A program made the translations under genes and the position numbers. Shown in pieces: positions 4,543-10,463 of a DNA stretch of 64,000 nt; the first letter of the stretch is position 1; the number at the start of each line of letters is the position of its first letter. The notes beneath the pieces are model-generated. The model did not search any database. It was not told where the DNA came from and saw only the letters and a list, made by a program, of their open reading frames with translations. The DNA lies in the NCBI GenBank assembly GCA_020353515.1, contig CP070695.1, positions 441,173-505,172 on the forward strand, given 5' to 3'. The DNA is from Candidatus Heimdallarchaeota archaeon (GTDB lineage Archaea; Asgardarchaeota; Heimdallarchaeia; Hodarchaeales; Hodarchaeaceae).

Positions 4543-5463
4543 TTAATTGCTACCAACAGAGAACTCCTTAACAGCAGAACGAACTTCAAGGTTTCCATAG
4601 ATACTCTCAACTTCAATATCTACAACATAAAATCCATTAGCTAAAATTCCAAAGTCTGCAGTAAATACTCCACTTTGTTCATTAAGTTCAAAGGAATCAA
4701 TCAGTGTTTTCTCATCAGAAGCAAAGGAAGAAAGGTTAATACTCATTCTCCTAACAATGTGTTTGTCTGAAGACTCGACTCGTATGGCATAATTCCAACC
4801 TTGTTCTTCCTTTTCAAACGAAATATCTACTGTAAGATTATAGGAATACCCCATAGCATTCGCAATAGCATAGGAGAATTCTTCGTAGTTTGGAGAAGTC
4901 GCAGTAATAATATTCCCATCAGTAACTACAGATGCTCCATCGATATAGATCCCACCTGCTGTTGTAAGATTAGCAACAATAGAGCTATGGCTGGTGAATT
5001 TTTTCCCGTTGATTAAATCCGCCTGGAGAAGTGTTCCATTACCTATTCCTGCAATTACCAAGCCGAGATCGTTTGCATCAGTTAGAAGACGTCCTATATT
5101 CTGATTTGAATAAAGAGTTGAAGCAAACTCTCCCCCAGGGATAATTATTGCATCAATGAGAGCTATCTCATGAATATCAGAAATAAGGATATCCGTTGTG
5201 ATCGTACCTTCAGTGGTCGAATGGTTTTCAGATAATCCTGCAACAATCACACTTCCCTGCCAGTCATCGAAATATTCCTTCACGCCTTGAAAATCACTTT
5301 CAGAGTACCCATCAGCAACAAAGAAGACAATATCCGCTCCTCTGATAGACATCCCTTGATTGTAAGCGGAGCGCATTTCGCTGAAGTAAAAGAAAAAGAT
5401 TAATTGAGCAAAGAAGGTTAAAGTAAAAAAGCCAACTAAGATGATTCTTAACTTTTTATTCAT
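4543..5463 (-). CDS. Membrane-anchored DJ-1/PfpI-family protein with C-terminal beta-rich domain, probably catalytically inactive
   Basis: N-terminal TM; DAIIIPGG and VVTDGNIITA motifs; nucleophile elbow reads AGIGNG rather than AAICHG. Confidence 0.8.
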   Translation of the reverse strand: MNKKLRIILVGFFTLTFFAQLIFFFYFSEMRSAYNQGMSIRGADIVFFVADGYSESDFQGVKEYFDDWQGSVIVAGLSENHSTTEGTITTDILISDIHEIALIDAIIIPGGEFASTLYSNQNIGRLLTDANDLGLVIAGIGNGTLLQADLINGKKFTSHSSIVANLTTAGGIYIDGASVVTDGNIITATSPNYEEFSYAIANAMGYSYNLTVDISFEKEEQGWNYAIRVESSDKHIVRRMSINLSSFASDEKTLIDSFELNEQSGVFTADFGILANGFYVVDIEVESIYGNLEVRSAVKEFSVGSN

Positions 5464-5504: not shown

Positions 5505-7121
5505 CTACTCCATGTTACTGAGTTTTCTTGCTCCAACCGATAAGATAACCATTCCTATGATTAACTGTAAAGCACTATAGATTACTGCCACAGGATAGAG
5601 AGCATCAGCGATAGCAAATAGATCCCAAAGAATCTGATCCAGGGAGATTAACAAGACAAATAATGGAATGATAACTCCAAACACACAGATCTGGATATTG
5701 ATCATAAATTCACCACTCTTATCATGAAATGCGGGATTTACTAGAAACAGACCGATAGTGAAGATTATAGCTGCTGAAGCAATGATAAGAGTCAAGGTAA
5801 CATTAAGAAGGAGTGTTTCCAAGGTTATGTCAGGAACAAGTAAGTTCACTGTGGTTTCAACAACTAGAACAATTGGGAGAATAGTTACAAGATATTGAAA
5901 TAGCTTCATTCTTAGGTATCTGCTTGTACTTGTCGGAGTCTGTTTATAGAGTAGCAAGTTTTCTTTTCCCTGAAGACTGATGTCGGAGGTTACAAACGCT
6001 GCCAAGAGAGGCCCTATGAATAAAGACATAATAAAAGCACTCTCAGGTTCATCAGGTTGAGCCAGAAAGACATTCATTACTAAAATTAAGCCGACACCAT
6101 AAATTATCCAGGCAACATTCTTTGCTTTACGGAAGTAAGTCTTGAATCCTGTAGCCAAAAGAAGACCTGATGATCCACCACCACCAAGCTTTCTGATGGA
6201 ATTATAGAACAAACTATTAGGATTAGAGGTAGCTGCAGAAAAGGAGGTTGGTTCAAGGTTGTATACACGATTCGCTAAAAACCCACCAATTAAGAGAGAG
6301 CCGCCCAAGAAAGCTAGTAAGGCACTGAACTGCAGGATCGTTGAGAACTCAGTAAGTAAGATATCTCCAGGGTTTTGTGCGAACGCAACAATGATTTCTG
6401 AACCCCATCCCCAGGGAAAGAACGCAAAAAGATCCTTTACAAGTTTAGCATTTTGAGGGTCTTTAAGGACCTCATAATACCCACCTATCAATAGATATAT
6501 GACAGCGATTAACGGTAGGATCACTATTATTGCTAATCCTTTTCCAATGTCTCTTCCTCGAGCTGATTTCATGAGAACTGATCGTAGGAGAACAGCTATC
6601 ATTGTTCCTACCCAAGTGGCGGATAAAAAGATAATTATGAAAACAGTTACGATAATAAAAATTTGAAAGATGTCTAAACCAAGTGGGAAGAGCGCTGCAG
6701 TAAAGGTTCCCCCAATGATAGCTGCAAATACTGCATAAAAGGGGATTTTCCCTAGGAATTCACCAATCAAAATGTCGCTCGGTTGAACTGGGGATGAAAG
6801 ATAGATCTCTAAGTGTTCGGTTTTAATGTCGGCGATAGTCGAGGATATTGGAAAAGAAGCAAACATGACAAATAATACGAAAAAGAGGACATTAATGATA
6901 GCTACTGCTACTGCGCTTAGTAATAATTCATGTAATTCATCAACAAATGCGTCGATAATGGAGGGGGCAATGAATAGTGTATAGATTGTTAATCCCCCAA
7001 TTAAAAGATAAGGGAGGTAGGATCGAATCTCACGAATTCGACTGGTTGTCACACGATATTCTGTCTTTGCTATTGATAACCAGGTAGGGTTTCGAAGAGA
7101 AATCAACTGTGGTTCCTCCAA
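5505..7121 (-). CDS. ABC-2 exporter permease (two-module, about 12 TM)
   Basis: Polytopic; LSSPVQPSDILIGEFL motif; overlaps the ABC ATPase gene. Confidence 0.85.
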   Translation of the reverse strand: MEEPQLISLRNPTWLSIAKTEYRVTTSRIREIRSYLPYLLIGGLTIYTLFIAPSIIDAFVDELHELLLSAVAVAIINVLFFVLFVMFASFPISSTIADIKTEHLEIYLSSPVQPSDILIGEFLGKIPFYAVFAAIIGGTFTAALFPLGLDIFQIFIIVTVFIIIFLSATWVGTMIAVLLRSVLMKSARGRDIGKGLAIIVILPLIAVIYLLIGGYYEVLKDPQNAKLVKDLFAFFPWGWGSEIIVAFAQNPGDILLTEFSTILQFSALLAFLGGSLLIGGFLANRVYNLEPTSFSAATSNPNSLFYNSIRKLGGGGSSGLLLATGFKTYFRKAKNVAWIIYGVGLILVMNVFLAQPDEPESAFIMSLFIGPLLAAFVTSDISLQGKENLLLYKQTPTSTSRYLRMKLFQYLVTILPIVLVVETTVNLLVPDITLETLLLNVTLTLIIASAAIIFTIGLFLVNPAFHDKSGEFMINIQICVFGVIIPLFVLLISLDQILWDLFAIADALYPVAVIYSALQLIIGMVILSVGARKLSNME

Positions 7122-7912
7122 GCTAGGAGCTCTTTTTCATCAACCCCACCAGTTAAGGTGATAAAGGCTTCTTCTAATGTTTTAGTCCCTGCTTGAGTAA
7201 TGATCTCATCAATTGTGCCCACTGCAACAAGCCTACCTTGGTTAATTATACCGATTCGATCACAAAGCTCCTCTACTAGGGGAAGAATATGGCTACATAC
7301 AACAATAGTCCTTCCTAGTTGATCTGCTAAGCCTTTTATCAAATCTTTAACCATATGAGCTGCTCGGGGATCCAGAGCTGCTGTAGGTTCATCGAAGTAG
7401 ATGATTGTAGGATCATGGATTAACGCCGCGGCAATTAATACCTTTTGCTTCATTCCTGAACTGAACCCTTCAAGGAGATGATCCTTTCTATCAGTCAGAC
7501 CGAATAGCTTTAGAAGTTCCTCAATACGTTCTTTCAAGATTGTCCCTTTGATGTTGTAGAGGGCTCCTATGAATTCGAGAAACTCGTATGCACTTAGCTT
7601 TTCATATAGTCCAGGTGACTCTGCTAATAGACCCGTGATGGTTTTAACCTGTGTGGAGTCTTTAGAAATGTCATGGCCATTCACATCAGCAGTACCACTG
7701 GTTGGTTTCAGAATACAGTTCAAGAGGCGAACAGTAGTGGTTTTTCCCGCACCATTAGGACCCAGAAGGCCAAAAGTCTCACCCTCATAAATTTCAAGAT
7801 TAAGCTCATCAACAGCTTTGATATCTTTCCCATAATACTTTGAAAGGTTATCCGTACGGATAAGAACCTTTTTTCTTTGTTTTGTTTCTGTTATAATTTC
7901 TTGTATTTGCAT
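7103..7912 (-). CDS. ABC transporter ATP-binding protein
   Basis: GPNGAGKT, FSSGMKQK, FDEPT, H-loop. Confidence 0.95.
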   Translation of the reverse strand: MQIQEIITETKQRKKVLIRTDNLSKYYGKDIKAVDELNLEIYEGETFGLLGPNGAGKTTTVRLLNCILKPTSGTADVNGHDISKDSTQVKTITGLLAESPGLYEKLSAYEFLEFIGALYNIKGTILKERIEELLKLFGLTDRKDHLLEGFSSGMKQKVLIAAALIHDPTIIYFDEPTAALDPRAAHMVKDLIKGLADQLGRTIVVCSHILPLVEELCDRIGIINQGRLVAVGTIDEIITQAGTKTLEEAFITLTGGVDEKELLAWRNHS

Positions 7913-7934: not shown

Positions 7935-8393
7935 TTAATTTATCCTCCATCCACAGGAAGCACAGAATCGATCATCAGATTCTAAGCTATTTCCGCAATT
8001 TGTACAGAAAAATGAGGACGACTTAGGTTTTGGTTCCCAATATTGGTCATCATTTCTGGAATAGAATGGCTTTGGTCTAGGCTTTGCATGATAGGAAGTT
8101 CTGTCTCTCTCATATCTATTAGAAGAGTCATCAAGTGTTTCACTTTCATCCAAAGTTTCAGTGAAACCAGCTGCGACTAATACAATTACTCCAATCATGA
8201 TGATAAACATGAATATTAACGGGAAAATTGTCATTGAAATGTCACCATGCATTCCGAGGATTATTAATAGAGGTACAAACAGTCCTATTACGAGGCTGAA
8301 GATAGTAATCAAGAACACAAATTTACTGGGTTTTTTGCGCCTTCTTCCATCTTGAGCACAAGCTGCAGCGGCGACTCCACCTATCCAAGCCAT
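7935..8393 (-). CDS. Two-TM membrane protein with C-terminal zinc ribbon
   Basis: Two hydrophobic helices; CTNCG...FCASCG. Confidence 0.85.
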   Translation of the reverse strand: MAWIGGVAAAACAQDGRRRKKPSKFVFLITIFSLVIGLFVPLLIILGMHGDISMTIFPLIFMFIIMIGVIVLVAAGFTETLDESETLDDSSNRYERDRTSYHAKPRPKPFYSRNDDQYWEPKPKSSSFFCTNCGNSLESDDRFCASCGWRIN

Positions 8394-8593
8394 TATGCTA
8401 GTCCTCCTTGATTCGAAATCTTCTTAAATTGTACTACAGAGGTGGCTAAGAACACCAATCCTAGTATAAAAAACACTGGATTAGTGGCTCCTAAACAGAG
8501 CCAAATAATTCCTAAAGCACGAAGAGCTTGAATCTGATCAAGGTTTTCTTCCTTTTTCATTTGATTTTTTTCGTTTATTTCTTGATTAAGCAA
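8393..8593 (-). CDS. Small membrane protein
   Basis: GGAG upstream of TTG; hydrophobic hairpin; TAATG overlap with the next gene. Confidence 0.7.
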   Translation of the reverse strand: MLNQEINEKNQMKKEENLDQIQALRALGIIWLCLGATNPVFFILGLVFLATSVVQFKKISNQGGLA

Positions 8594-8614: not shown

Positions 8615-8677
8615 TTCGGTGATTGGATTGGTTTTCGCAATTACCGAATTTGTTCATTACTAAAAATGGTAATTACC
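8615..8677. promoter_or_regulatory. Candidate operator(s) in divergent promoter region
   Basis: Inverted repeat TTCGGTGATTG-N12-CAATTACCGAA (8615-8648) and palindrome GGTAATTACC (8668-8677). Confidence 0.45.
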
Positions 8678-8876
8678 TTTATAAATGCATTGTTTTAGGA
8701 AAAACACATCAGTAAACTACCAAAAAAAAATTATACTATCTGAAATAAAAGTCAATTAAAAGGTCAATATCTTTATATGAGAATGTAAATGCTTTATTTG
8801 TGAAGAACACTTAGCCCTGTCGAAACGAAAAGTTTAAAAGAATAGTCACTAATTTTAGTAATGAATAATTAAGGTA

Positions 8877-9461
8877 ATGGAAAGTCGAAAAGTGACTCCT
8901 TTGTTATCAGATTCAGAGAATGTGGTCATAAGAGAACTTTTCAAGACCCCCAAAGTTGAGATTGAAGTCATCAAAGATGTTTTAATTAAAGAGAGGAGAG
9001 AGTGGGAGCGTATAGTGGAGGATGGACGCTTACAAAAGGAAGTTGATGTACGCTCAATATCTAAATTTAAATCTCTAGCCTTAAAAAAGATCAAAAAAGC
9101 ACTTACGGAGTTCTCAGATAACTTCAGGTTAGATAGGTCAGTTCAGGGCCGCACGAAACAAGAACGCGAAGAAGATGAAAAAAAGATAAATATCCTCCTA
9201 AAAAATGGCGTTCTAATTGGGTATGACTTTCGAGATGATAGACCAGTCTATCTATTTTATAACATAAATAAACGTGCTATAATCCCATGGCAGGATCATT
9301 CTTGTCATGAAAATTGCCAGGAACAATGTTTTTCCATTCTTACAACATTTAGAAACGAGCATGGTCTTGATGACCCAAATCAAAATATTCCCATTCGAAA
9401 GCAATTTGAAGCTAGTATAGAGGAAATCATCAAGAAAAATAAGGATCGAAAAGAAGAATGA
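8877..9461 (+). CDS. Putative HTH transcriptional regulator with C-terminal His/Cys metal-binding motif
   Basis: Basic helix RSISKFKSLALKKIKK; GVLIGYD; WQDHSCHENCQEQC; divergent from the ABC operon. Confidence 0.55.
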   Translation: MESRKVTPLLSDSENVVIRELFKTPKVEIEVIKDVLIKERREWERIVEDGRLQKEVDVRSISKFKSLALKKIKKALTEFSDNFRLDRSVQGRTKQEREEDEKKINILLKNGVLIGYDFRDDRPVYLFYNINKRAIIPWQDHSCHENCQEQCFSILTTFRNEHGLDDPNQNIPIRKQFEASIEEIIKKNKDRKEE

Positions 9462-10207
9462 ATGAAGTCAAAATTATCAAGGGGTCTGACATCCCTCCTC
9501 CCCCTGGAAAACCGAGAATTATTCGTCCCAGTAGGAATCTCCTCTGGAAAAATTATTTGTTGTATATTTTAGTATTCATCATTTTCACCGCCGTATTGTT
9601 GATCATCTTTGCGCTTTTTGGATTCTGGTTGGGATCTGAACTTCCAGAACCACAAACGAGGGTATTATATGAGGCTTTTTTCTGGATGGGGGTCATTTAC
9701 ATGGCAATTTGGTTTGGAATCACTATTGCTTATCTTGTAGGGATGCGTCTATACGTAAAATCTATGTTATTCATCGTTCACGGTCATGAAATCGTGGTTC
9801 ACAAAGGAATAATTAATAAATCCGAGAAACATGTTCCCTATAGAACAGTAACGAATATCAACATGAAAACTGGTCCTTTCGACCGATTATTTGGTATAGG
9901 TACAATTGAAATCCAAACTGCTGGGGGTAAAGGTTATTCTCTTGATGAGACTGCAGAAGAGAAATTAGAAGGGATTAAAGTTTACCGTGAAGTAAGAGAC
10001 TATATATTGACTCAATTAAGACAATTCCAAGCAGCTTATGGAACAGTTGTTACGAAAGAAGAGGAAGCACCTATACAACCTATTCCTGACCAAATGCTCC
10101 TAGAATTGAAAGAAATTAAAAATGTTTTAACTACTCGATTAGAAAGAATGGAAGCAAAATTGGAAGAAATGAATAAACAATTAGAAAAGAATCAAAAACC
10201 CTATTAA
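9458..10207 (+). CDS. Membrane protein with bacterial PH domain (bPH_2/YdbS-like) and C-terminal coiled coil
   Basis: Two TMs then KGIINKSEKHVPYRTVTNI..GPFDRLFGIGTIEIQTAG. Confidence 0.9.
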   Translation: MNEVKIIKGSDIPPPPGKPRIIRPSRNLLWKNYLLYILVFIIFTAVLLIIFALFGFWLGSELPEPQTRVLYEAFFWMGVIYMAIWFGITIAYLVGMRLYVKSMLFIVHGHEIVVHKGIINKSEKHVPYRTVTNINMKTGPFDRLFGIGTIEIQTAGGKGYSLDETAEEKLEGIKVYREVRDYILTQLRQFQAAYGTVVTKEEEAPIQPIPDQMLLELKEIKNVLTTRLERMEAKLEEMNKQLEKNQKPY

Positions 10208-10238
10208 GCAGCCATTTTATTACTATTTGGTGGAATTA

Positions 10239-10340
10239 ATGGACATCTGGCTACAAATAATGCTGATAGTGTTTGGATTATTCATCATTGGATTATTTGT
10301 AGTATTTTTTATGAGATTTATTAAATGGATAACAAAATAG
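10239..10340 (+). CDS. 33-aa single-TM micropeptide A (MDIWLQIMLIVFGLFIIGLFVVFFMRFIKWITK)
   Basis: GGTGG 5 nt upstream of ATG; paralogous to the next ORF. Confidence 0.7.
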   Translation: MDIWLQIMLIVFGLFIIGLFVVFFMRFIKWITK

Positions 10341-10361
10341 TTTGAACCTGTTGGTAGAAAC

Positions 10362-10463
10362 ATGTTAGAACCATTTCCAATCATTCTAATCGTAGCTCTT
10401 TTAGGATTATTGTTATTGTTTATTGCCCTTTTCATTAGATTTCTTAAGAAAGTTACGAGCTAG
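10362..10463 (+). CDS. 33-aa single-TM micropeptide B (MLEPFPIILIVALLGLLLLFIALFIRFLKKVTS)
   Basis: GGTAG upstream; same length and C-terminal motif as peptide A. Confidence 0.7.
   Translation: MLEPFPIILIVALLGLLLLFIALFIRFLKKVTS

What the first reader, a model, noticed from the sequence alone, without database searches (positions are those of the whole stretch)
10239..10463. Unannotated twin 33-aa membrane micropeptides
Seen: two consecutive ORFs of exactly 102 nt, 21 nt apart, each with an SD-like site. MDIWLQIMLIVFGLFIIGLFVVFFMRFIKWITK and MLEPFPIILIVALLGLLLLFIALFIRFLKKVTS align without gaps (I.LIV...LF...F.RF.K.[IV]T) despite diverged DNA, which suggests selection on the protein. They end the regulator + bPH_2 operon. 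Inference: a heterodimeric membrane modulator, signal, or toxin-like peptide pair.
Basis: partly seen in the sequence, partly recalled or inferred. Interest (0 to 1): 0.75.

Follow-up and report, generated by a model that had tools for sequence, protein, structure and literature searches.

The report
Conserved twin membrane micropeptides in Hodarchaeales
Two unannotated 33-residue genes at the end of a PH-domain membrane-protein operon in an Asgard (Hodarchaeales) archaeon are real, selected single-pass membrane micropeptides of a new, clade-restricted family, sitting in a locus built like bacterial leaderless-bacteriocin export loci; their function is untested.

Summary
They are genes, not AT-rich noise.

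- **Conservation:** all nine species of one clade of a Hodarchaeales genus keep a peptide gene after the orthologous bPH_2 gene; both genes are seen in all eight loci with enough sequence. Frame is preserved, dS is mostly above 1, and dN/dS is about 0.1-0.5.
- **Specificity:** a family profile finds only three members among 134,487 six-frame ORFs of this genome. It finds none outside that clade in 400 Asgard genomes, and only 3 hits among 1.84 billion protein representatives.
- **Family features:** acidic N-terminus, one transmembrane helix, and a basic C-terminal tail [RK]F[LI][RK][KR][IV]T-x. This predicts N-out/C-in topology.
- **Annotation:** the neighbouring proteins are in the public protein collection but the peptides are not.
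- **Locus:** an HTH-like regulator, bPH_2 and the peptides face an ABC exporter across a shared promoter element. This mirrors leaderless-bacteriocin loci such as enterocin DD14.
- **Parallel case:** Thorarchaeota carry the same module with unrelated micropeptides. This scan had already noted that version on other DNA.

My best reading is accessory membrane subunits of the bPH_2/ABC module (about 0.45). The main rival is exported peptide cargo (about 0.2). Function is inferred, not shown.

The parts
10239..10340 (+). pepA, a 33-aa single-pass membrane micropeptide (acidic N-terminus, TM helix, basic C-terminal tail ending T-x)
   Evidence: ORF. Orthologues in 9 species. Family HMM E 1.2e-15 in the own-genome six-frame search. 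Kyte-Doolittle 19-residue maximum 3.1, N-terminal charge -1, C-terminal charge +3.
10362..10463 (+). pepB, the paralogous 33-aa single-pass membrane micropeptide
   Evidence: HMM E 6e-15. The start codon at the same aligned position is ATG, GTG or TTG in different species. Identical protein in the closest relative despite 3 synonymous changes.
10229..10233 (+). SD-like GGTGG, 5 nt before the pepA start codon
   Evidence: Sequence. A G-rich GGTG-like patch is kept at this position in orthologues while the rest of the spacer diverges.
10353..10357 (+). Weaker SD-like GGTAG before pepB
   Evidence: It is imperfect in this genome; the equivalent sites are GGTGG or AGGTGG in some relatives.
9458..10207 (+). 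bPH_2 (YdbS-like) membrane protein: basic N-terminus, TM hairpin, PH domain, C-terminal helical tail
   Evidence: Pfam PF03703 E 4.8e-14. Orthologues across the genus. Topology is inferred from charge distribution in the sequence.
8877..9461 (+). 194-aa regulator-like protein: N-terminal HTH-like domain plus invariant W..H.C...C...C
   Evidence: No Pfam hit. Paralogue of a protein with a weak GerE hit. The family is shared with Thorarchaeota. AF2 pLDDT 84. Residues 2-78 match HTH domains at Z about 5, and Foldseek finds no whole-fold match.
8640..8685 (.). Left arm of the inverted repeat in the divergent promoter region (TATA 8678-8685, shared 13-mer 12 nt beyond it)
8833..8878 (.). Right arm of the inverted repeat (TATA-like 8833-8840, TTTTAGTAATGAA at 8853-8865, start codon at 8877)
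8393..8593 (-). 66-aa small membrane protein, first gene of the facing operon
7935..8393 (-). Membrane protein with a C-terminal zinc ribbon
   Evidence: Pfam zinc-ribbon families E about 4e-6. Conserved genus-wide.
7103..7912 (-). ABC transporter ATPase
   Evidence: PF00005 E 1.9e-28.
5505..7121 (-). ABC-2-type permease
   Evidence: PF01061 E 3.6e-6.
4543..5463 (-). Membrane-anchored DJ-1/PfpI-family protein, last gene of the facing operon
   Evidence: PF01965 E 2.6e-20.

Best explanation
pepA and pepB are genuine protein-coding genes. They are tandem paralogues of a new micropeptide family found only in one clade of a Hodarchaeales (Asgard) genus. Each product is a 32-36-residue single-pass membrane peptide. 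It has a short acidic N-terminus outside, a helix of about 22 residues in the membrane, and an eight-residue basic tail [RK]-F-[LI]-[RK]-[KR]-[IV]-T-x-COOH in the cytoplasm.

The two genes are most likely read from the same transcript as the upstream HTH-like regulator and the bPH_2 membrane protein, each from its own SD-like site. That operon shares a promoter-proximal element with a facing operon for an ABC exporter.

I infer that the two peptides stay in the producer's membrane as small accessory subunits. In this model their conserved cytoplasmic tails dock at the membrane-cytoplasm interface, where the PH domain of the bPH_2 protein sits. They would tune assembly or activity of a bPH_2/ABC 'membrane-peptide handling or envelope-stress' module, as AcrZ, KdpF or sarcolipin tune their partners.

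Shown: reality of the genes, conservation, family limits, predicted topology, and locus architecture. Inferred: co-transcription, physical partnership, and the direction of the effect.
For: Gene reality:
- A peptide gene follows the orthologous bPH_2 gene in all nine loci with bPH_2 identity of 65% or more. Both genes are seen in all eight loci with enough downstream sequence; the ninth contig ends inside pepB.
- Lengths differ only by whole codons, while the spacer between the genes varies from 21 to 39 nt.
- dN/dS for A+B is 0.10-0.53, mostly with dS above 1.
- Peptide-bearing loci form one group on the bPH_2 tree (1 change, support 80/78).

Not a composition artefact:
- The family HMM hits only 3 of 134,487 six-frame ORFs in this genome; the next hit has E 0.17.
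- Only 9 of 400 Asgard genomes have credible hits, all in that clade.
- Only 3 of 1.84e9 protein representatives match.

Membrane retention and topology:
- The Kyte-Doolittle 19-residue maximum is about 3.0-3.7, and the longest run without charged or amide residues is 19-24 in 17 of 18 members (13 in one).
- N-terminal charge is -1 or -2 in 17 of 18 members (0 in one) and C-terminal charge is +3 to +5.
- Thr at -2 is invariant and Phe at -7 is present in 22 of 23 distinct sequences. All sequences align without gaps from the C-terminus.

Linkage to the module:
- The spacer after bPH_2 is 31-50 nt with an SD-like patch and no conserved TATA.
- The downstream gene is not syntenic, whereas the regulator-bPH_2 / ABC divergent cluster is conserved genus-wide.
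- The two divergent promoters share a 13-mer at identical spacing from their TATA boxes.
- In Thorarchaeota the homologous regulator-bPH_2(x4) / ABC module also carries two conserved micropeptides of about 30 aa. They have no detectable homology to this family (hhalign probability 3.8%), so the association recurs.
Against: - There is no expression, translation or interaction data of any kind.
- The third family member (pepC, G000 C1:429541-429645, minus strand, 11.5 kb before the window) is not next to a bPH_2 or ABC gene. It pairs with a different micropeptide upstream of a SAM methyltransferase, so the family is not strictly tied to bPH_2.
- Sister species keep the whole module without these peptides, so the peptides are dispensable add-ons.
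- Conservation within the helix shows no significant one-face periodicity (P=0.12).
- Complex prediction could not be run.
- The locus architecture fits the cargo hypothesis equally well.
Confidence: 0.45

Rival explanations
1. The peptides are the cargo. They would be leaderless, unmodified, membrane-active peptides (an archaeocin-like two-peptide system) that the bPH_2 protein and the facing ABC transporter export and/or protect the producer against, as DdE/DdF and DdGHIJ do for enterocin DD14.
For: - In Firmicutes, twin leaderless peptide genes sit with YdbS/YdbT-type PHb2 membrane proteins and an ABC transporter. The PH-domain proteins are required for export (PMC8657885; PMC10376788).
- Here the locus has tandem paralogous leaderless peptides, a bPH_2 protein and an ABC exporter.
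- Distribution is clade-restricted and tandem copy number varies from 2 to 3.
- The peptides are net cationic, +1 to +3.
- They evolve 2-3 times faster than bPH_2 at non-synonymous sites.
- The export/immunity-like module is present without peptides in sister species, like orphan immunity loci.
Against: - Known leaderless bacteriocins are highly cationic amphipathic helices, either saposin-like or one helix plus a disordered tail (PMC6131525). These peptides instead have an uninterrupted hydrophobic span typical of a membrane anchor, GRAVY 1.2-2.0, and a positive-inside charge pattern.
- They sit at the 3' end of the operon rather than in their own strongly expressed unit.
- The third copy is unlinked to any exporter.
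- They match no bacteriocin family in Pfam or NCBIfam.
Confidence: 0.2
2. They are type-I-toxin-like or holin-like membrane-depolarising peptides whose expression is kept low. They would act in growth arrest or stress dormancy.
For: Their size, single hydrophobic helix and charged tail resemble Fst/Ldr/TisB-type toxins (my own knowledge of those families; features). There are three copies per genome.
Against: - No RNA family was detected on either strand.
- Flanking non-coding sequence is not conserved between species, so no conserved antisense partner is visible.
- The genes follow a larger gene at 31 nt with no conserved promoter of their own.
- They have been retained as a pair in every species of the clade, under purifying selection.
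Confidence: 0.08
3. They are chance ORFs: T-rich, AT-rich DNA readily yields short hydrophobic reading frames with no function.
For: The genome is 35.8% GC and the local region is about 28-31% GC. BLASTP of the pair alone is barely significant.
Against: - Frames, lengths, start position and stop are kept in nine species at saturated synonymous divergence.
- The profile hits only three ORFs in the genome.
- The C-terminal motif is essentially invariant.
Confidence: 0.03

Closest known systems
Leaderless (class IId) bacteriocin loci of Firmicutes: enterocin DD14/L50 (ddAB + ddEF + ddGHIJ), aureocin A53 (orf7/orf8), lacticin Q (lnqCD + lnqEF)
   Same: Tandem paralogous peptide genes without leader sequences lie in one locus with YdbS/YdbT-type bPH_2 (PHb2) membrane proteins and an ABC transporter, and a regulator is nearby. 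The PH-domain proteins are needed to get the peptides out of the cytoplasm (PMC8657885, PMC10376788).
   Different: - The host is an archaeon (Hodarchaeales).
- There is one single-domain bPH_2 protein instead of a YdbS + YdbT pair.
- The peptides are transmembrane-anchor-like (GRAVY 1.2-2.0, positive-inside), not amphipathic, highly cationic and soluble.
- They lie at the 3' end of the bPH_2 operon.
- There is no sequence similarity to any bacteriocin family.
Small single-pass membrane proteins that act as accessory subunits or regulators of larger membrane machines (AcrZ-AcrB, KdpF-KdpABC, CydX-CydAB, MgtS-MgtA; sarcolipin/phospholamban-SERCA). This comparison rests on my own knowledge of these systems.
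   Same: They are under 50 residues with one helix. Several are encoded in the operon of their partner, are missed by annotation, and are restricted to narrow lineages.
   Different: No partner has been demonstrated here. Two parallel paralogues occur together. The defining feature is a conserved C-terminal cytoplasmic octapeptide that has no counterpart in those families.
Thorarchaeota regulator-bPH_2(x4)/ABC module with micropeptides of about 30 aa
   Same: The regulator family is homologous (alignment A4). Both have bPH_2 genes, a facing ABC ATPase, and two conserved single-helix micropeptide genes inside the bPH_2 operon.
   Different: The Thor peptides have a basic N-terminus and no basic tail, so their predicted orientation is the opposite. 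They show no detectable homology to this family. Thor has four bPH_2 genes where this locus has one.
Bacillus subtilis ydbS-ydbT (sigma-W envelope-stress regulon)
   Same: These are bPH_2 membrane proteins under an envelope-stress regulator (PMC3498285). That supports a membrane-stress or peptide-resistance context for the module.
   Different: No micropeptide genes are described in that operon, and the regulator type is different.

Membership tests
Leaderless bacteriocin locus (EntDD14/L50, aureocin A53, lacticin Q type) | Small peptide gene(s) translated without a leader, often tandem paralogues | tested here: met
   Two (three in G012) tandem paralogous ORFs of 32-36 aa. The conserved hydrophobic core begins 2-8 residues after the start, leaving no room for a leader.
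Leaderless bacteriocin locus (EntDD14/L50, aureocin A53, lacticin Q type) | YdbS/YdbT-like PHb2 (bPH_2) membrane proteins encoded in the locus | tested here: met
   PF03703 E 4.8e-14 for the gene immediately upstream. It is a single one-domain protein, not a YdbS + YdbT pair.
Leaderless bacteriocin locus (EntDD14/L50, aureocin A53, lacticin Q type) | ABC transporter in the locus | tested here: met
   An ABC ATPase (PF00005 E 1.9e-28) and an ABC-2 permease lie in the facing operon, which shares a promoter element.
Leaderless bacteriocin locus (EntDD14/L50, aureocin A53, lacticin Q type) | Peptides are highly cationic, amphipathic helices (saposin-like or LsbB-like) and soluble | tested here: not met
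   Net charge is only +1 to +3, GRAVY is 1.2-2.0, and 17 of 18 members have an uncharged run of 19-24 residues. The criterion is taken from PMC6131525.
Leaderless bacteriocin locus (EntDD14/L50, aureocin A53, lacticin Q type) | Export from the producer and antimicrobial activity | not testable with these tools
   This needs expression, fractionation and inhibition assays.
Accessory single-pass membrane micropeptides (AcrZ/KdpF/CydX/sarcolipin kind) | Under 50 aa with one transmembrane helix | tested here: met
   32-36 aa, with a Kyte-Doolittle 19-residue window of 3.0-3.7.
Accessory single-pass membrane micropeptides (AcrZ/KdpF/CydX/sarcolipin kind) | Genetic linkage to a membrane-protein partner, conserved across species | tested here: met
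   A peptide gene is always directly 3' of the bPH_2 gene in nine species, while the next gene varies. The third paralogue is not linked in this way.
Accessory single-pass membrane micropeptides (AcrZ/KdpF/CydX/sarcolipin kind) | Physical binding to the partner and modulation of it | not testable with these tools
   Only single-chain structure prediction is offered, and no interaction data exist.
Type I toxin-antitoxin toxins | Overlapping or adjacent antisense RNA antitoxin and an own promoter | tested here: inconclusive
   No Rfam hit. The flanks are not conserved. There is no conserved TATA in the 31-50-nt spacer. Transcript data are lacking.
Archaeosortase/PGF-CTERM-type C-terminal sorting signals | Signature motif + TM helix + basic cluster at the C-terminus of a larger secreted protein | tested here: not met
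   The peptides have no cargo domain and no conserved PGF-like motif. There is no NCBIfam hit. No larger ORF in the genome carries this helix-plus-tail.

The most novel reading that the evidence does not exclude
Asgard archaea carry a peptide-handling system analogous to the leaderless-bacteriocin machinery. It is built from a dedicated HTH/Cys-His regulator, bPH_2 membrane proteins and an ABC exporter. In this reading the lineage-specific micropeptides (this family in Hodarchaeales, an unrelated one in Thorarchaeota) are the handled substrates: membrane-active peptides delivered to the cell surface, to vesicles or to neighbouring cells. That would be the first ribosomal peptide antagonism or signalling system described in the closest archaeal relatives of eukaryotes.
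Probability: 0.2. Interest if true: 0.75.

Novelty: new variant of a known kind. Interest (0 to 1): 0.5.

Why it matters
Small membrane proteins are systematically missed in genome annotation. Almost nothing is known about them in Asgard archaea, the closest archaeal relatives of eukaryotes.

This work gives a clean, statistically solid case of a young micropeptide family. It was gained once, duplicated, and then retained in every descendant examined. It sits inside a conserved regulator/PH-domain/ABC module whose only studied relatives are bacterial leaderless-bacteriocin export systems and a Bacillus envelope-stress operon.

The family offers a concrete handle: a defined tail motif and a defined candidate partner. 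With these one can test what prokaryotic PH-domain membrane proteins do. One can also test whether Asgard archaea make and handle membrane-active peptides.

Tried and rejected
- **Known families:** Pfam, NCBIfam and ESM Atlas searches of the peptides found nothing (the best Atlas score of 0.80 is within noise).
- **Searches that could not run:** The search for homologous proteins refuses queries under 40 aa. I therefore did not search metagenome contigs for the family.
- **Read-through fusion of pepA and pepB:** rejected. They share a frame across a single TAG in this genome, but the frames differ in two species (spacers of 26 and 31 nt). The pepA stop is TAG, TGA or TAA in different species.
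- **Homology between the Hod family and the Thor micropeptides:** rejected (hhalign probability 3.8%). The comparison of pepD with the Thor peptides is inconclusive (probability 39%).
- **Helical-face conservation as a sign of helix packing:** not significant (P=0.12).
- **Remnants of the peptide genes in the nearest peptide-less species:** none. A different gene follows bPH_2 there.
- **Archaeosortase sorting-signal idea:** rejected (see the membership test).
- **16S 3' end:** I could not locate it by pattern to confirm the anti-SD.
- **Bacterial-type promoter/terminator scan:** uninformative for an archaeon and no better than shuffles.
- **Whole-fold match for the regulator:** none with Foldseek. 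Only the N-terminal HTH-like part matches, weakly.

Full report
**1. The observation**

The window carries two ORFs of exactly 102 nt, at 10239-10340 and 10362-10463 on the plus strand. They are 21 nt apart, and the first starts 31 nt after the stop of a gene at 9458-10207. That upstream gene encodes a bPH_2 protein (Pfam PF03703, E 4.8e-14).

The two 33-residue products align without gaps at 13/33 identity. This is far above a composition-preserving shuffle (P<1e-5) and above a segment-wise shuffle that keeps the hydrophobic core and tail apart (P=1.3e-4). The DNA is only 50/99 identical, with 10/33 matches at third codon positions. BLASTP with composition correction sees only the C-terminal eight residues (E 0.036). 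So the pair by itself would not be convincing in a 36%-GC genome, where T-rich frames often read as hydrophobic peptides.

**2. Are they genes?**

The genome is a single 4.94-Mb contig. Record titles of the orthologous loci place it in Hodarchaeota/Hodarchaeales, within the Asgard class Heimdallarchaeia.

Conservation in relatives:
- I searched 41 related genomes with the bPH_2 protein and examined the DNA after each orthologue.
- Every locus with bPH_2 identity of 65-96% (nine species including this one) has a peptide ORF in the same place and order. Both ORFs are seen in all eight loci with enough downstream sequence; in the ninth (G009) the contig ends inside pepB.
- The ATG of pepA is kept in all nine. 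The pepB start is ATG, GTG or TTG at the same aligned position.
- ORF lengths differ only by whole codons: pepA is 102 or 111 nt, and pepB is 99, 102 or 108 nt. The spacer between them varies freely (21, 26, 27, 30, 31, 39 nt), and the surrounding non-coding DNA is unalignable.
- Nei-Gojobori dN/dS for the two genes together is 0.10-0.53 (mostly 0.13-0.35), at dS mostly above 1. The bPH_2 gene gives 0.02-0.11 in the same pairs.
- In the closest relative, pepB differs by three synonymous and no non-synonymous changes.

Specificity of the family profile:
- It hits only three of 134,487 six-frame ORFs in this genome: pepA, pepB and a third copy. The next hit has E 0.17.
- Among 83 genomes of the class and 400 of the phylum, it gives credible hits only in the same nine genomes of one genus. 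The two hits near E 7e-4 in other genera lie in a 212-aa frame or contain a stop, and are what 400 searches would give by chance.
- Among 1.84 billion protein-cluster representatives it finds three proteins, all obvious members of the same family.

On a tree of the bPH_2 orthologues, the peptide-bearing loci form one group (one change, support 80/78). The family was therefore gained once and kept in every sampled descendant.

The regulator and bPH_2 proteins of this very contig are in the 15-billion-protein collection. pepA, pepB and the third copy are not. This supports 'unannotated'.

**3. The family**

Twenty-three distinct members align without gaps from the C-terminus. The shared features are:
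- A short N-terminus carrying one or two acidic residues (net -1 or -2 in 17 of the 18 operon copies measured).
- A hydrophobic span, uninterrupted for 19-24 residues in 17 of those 18, with a Kyte-Doolittle 19-residue window of 3.0-3.7.
- A tail [RK]-F-[LI]-[RK]-[KR]-[IV]-T-x that always ends one residue after an invariant Thr. Phe at -7 is present in 22 of 23, and the tail charge is +3 to +5.

By the positive-inside rule, this predicts N-out/C-in orientation for both peptides, so they would be a parallel pair.

An SD-like G-rich patch precedes most members (12 of 18, against a 23% background). In this window it is GGTGG before pepA but only GGTAG before pepB.

No Pfam, NCBIfam or Atlas family matches.

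**4. The third copy**

The third copy (pepC) lies at G000 C1:429541-429645 on the minus strand, 11.5 kb before the window. It is conserved in at least six species. In four of them it is followed by a different conserved micropeptide (pepD, with a basic N-terminus and so probably the opposite orientation), and in three of those four also by a SAM-dependent methyltransferase gene.

One species has its third copy in tandem after pepB instead. The family is therefore not strictly bound to bPH_2.

**5. The locus**

Upstream of bPH_2, and overlapping it by 4 nt, is a 194-aa protein with no Pfam hit.
- It is a paralogue (27% identity, E 6e-14) of a protein with a weak GerE/LuxR helix-turn-helix hit. 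That protein heads a second module in this genome, made of three bPH_2 genes plus an ABC ATPase and permease (C1:413-418 kb, with no micropeptides).
- Its family extends to Thorarchaeota and has an invariant W..H.C...C...C signature.
- An AlphaFold model is confident (pLDDT 84).
- Its first ~75 residues match sigma-region-4, LuxR and Lrp helix-turn-helix domains at Z about 5.
- The whole fold has no Foldseek match.

'Regulator' is therefore plausible but only weakly supported.

Facing this operon is a second one:
- a 66-aa membrane protein;
- a zinc-ribbon membrane protein;
- an ABC ATPase;
- an ABC-2 permease;
- a membrane-anchored DJ-1/PfpI protein.

The two promoters share TTTTAGTAATGAA, starting 12 nt beyond each TATA-like box. 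This confirms an earlier first-reader note and argues for common control.

The divergent cluster is conserved across the genus, including in the species that lack the peptides. The gene after pepB is not conserved. In the nearest peptide-less species another gene follows bPH_2, and there is no remnant of the peptide genes.

**6. A recurring theme**

In Thorarchaeota the homologous module is a facing ABC ATPase, the same regulator family, and four bPH_2 genes. It carries two conserved single-helix ORFs of 30-33 aa, one after the first bPH_2 gene and one at the operon end. I found them in 11 of 14 loci examined. They have a basic N-terminus, no basic tail, and no detectable homology to the Hodarchaeales family (hhalign probability 3.8%).

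Unrelated micropeptides have therefore been recruited to the same module at least twice. That is the strongest indirect argument that the peptides work with it. This scan had already described the Thorarchaeota version on other DNA (e1-5477062, e1-2887975). I re-derived it from the sequences before reading those notes.

**7. Comparison with known systems**

The only studied systems that combine bPH_2 membrane proteins, an ABC transporter and tandem small peptide genes are the leaderless-bacteriocin loci of Firmicutes.
- In enterocin DD14, the twin peptides DdA/DdB need the YdbS/YdbT-like proteins DdE/DdF for export, assisted by the ABC transporter DdGHIJ.
- Homologous pairs occur in the aureocin A53 and lacticin Q loci (PMC8657885, PMC10376788).
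- B. subtilis ydbST belongs to the sigma-W envelope-stress regulon (PMC3498285).

The architecture here matches those loci on three counts: leaderless tandem peptides, a bPH_2 protein and an ABC transporter. The peptides fail the physicochemical definition. Leaderless bacteriocins are highly cationic, amphipathic and soluble (PMC6131525). These peptides are membrane anchors with a positive-inside pattern.

**8. Mechanism and odds**

- **Accessory subunits (about 0.45).** I think it most likely that pepA and pepB remain in the producer's membrane as small accessory subunits of the bPH_2/ABC module, with their conserved tails acting at the cytoplasmic face beside the PH domain.
- **Exported or handled cargo (about 0.2).** This is the main rival, and the more novel one.
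- **Type-I-toxin-like role (about 0.08).** No RNA family was found, the flanks are not conserved, and the genes have no promoter of their own.
- **Chance ORFs (about 0.03).** This is effectively excluded.
- **Other (about 0.24).** The remaining probability covers functions I have not thought of. One example is a role tied to the invariant Thr in a [RK][RK]x[T] context, which resembles a basophilic kinase site. That last point is my own speculation and is untested.

**9. Verdict**

The functional reading remains open.

This is a new, narrowly distributed micropeptide family. It is also an archaeal variant of a known locus type. It is of moderate interest in itself, and of higher interest if the cargo reading proves right.

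Noticed in passing
G000 C1:429541-429645 (-) = L021:5539-5646 (-), 11.5 kb before the window start; pepD at L021:5401-5496 (-): A third member of the family (pepC) is conserved in at least six species. In four of them a different conserved micropeptide of 31-37 aa follows directly (pepD, consensus start MDKxIRRL then a TM helix), and in three of those four a SAM methyltransferase gene follows as well. This second micropeptide pair is probably antiparallel.
   Followed up: partly
L061-L072 (Thorarchaeota loci), e.g. L065:1912-2010 and L065:4489-4581: The homologous Thorarchaeota module (facing ABC ATPase, same regulator family, four bPH_2 genes) carries two conserved 30-33-aa single-helix ORFs. 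They are paralogous to each other but show no detectable homology to the Hodarchaeales family.
   Followed up: partly
window 8393-8593 (-); L056:1968-1840 (-); L058:1950-1846 (-): The facing operon also begins with a small membrane protein. It is 66 aa here. In the peptide-less sister species it is a 34-42-aa one-helix peptide with an LERKRK tail, and its helix resembles the C-terminal helix of the 66-aa protein.
   Followed up: partly
window 8877-9461 (+): The regulator-like protein belongs to an undescribed family shared by Hodarchaeales and Thorarchaeota. It has an N-terminal HTH-like domain (Z about 5 to sigma-4/LuxR/Lrp) plus an invariant W..H.C...C...C, possibly a metal or redox sensor. 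The AF2 model is confident (pLDDT 84), and Foldseek finds no match in the PDB.
   Followed up: partly
window 8640-8685 and 8833-8878: The divergent promoters share TTTTAGTAATGAA starting 12 nt beyond each TATA-like box. This is a candidate common operator over both transcription start regions.
   Followed up: partly
G000 C1:413064-417943 (-) = L075: A second, paralogous module lies in the same genome: a regulator paralogue (weak GerE hit), three tandem bPH_2 genes, an ABC ATPase and a permease, all co-directional. It has no micropeptide ORFs.
   Followed up: partly
window 4543-5463 (-): A membrane-anchored DJ-1/PfpI-family protein ends the ABC operon. The Thorarchaeota version of the module is reported by an earlier finding to carry a C39-like peptidase at that place.
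   Followed up: no
L008:2702-2812 (G012): One species has three tandem family members after bPH_2, and no separate pepC locus was found there (genome 83% complete). This hints that pepC arose from a tandem copy that later moved.
   Followed up: no
P0003 (ENA metagenome protein, 73 aa): A gene caller merged an out-of-frame stretch over pepA with the pepB frame into one 73-aa 'protein'. This is an example of how these genes get mis-called when they are called at all.
   Followed up: no
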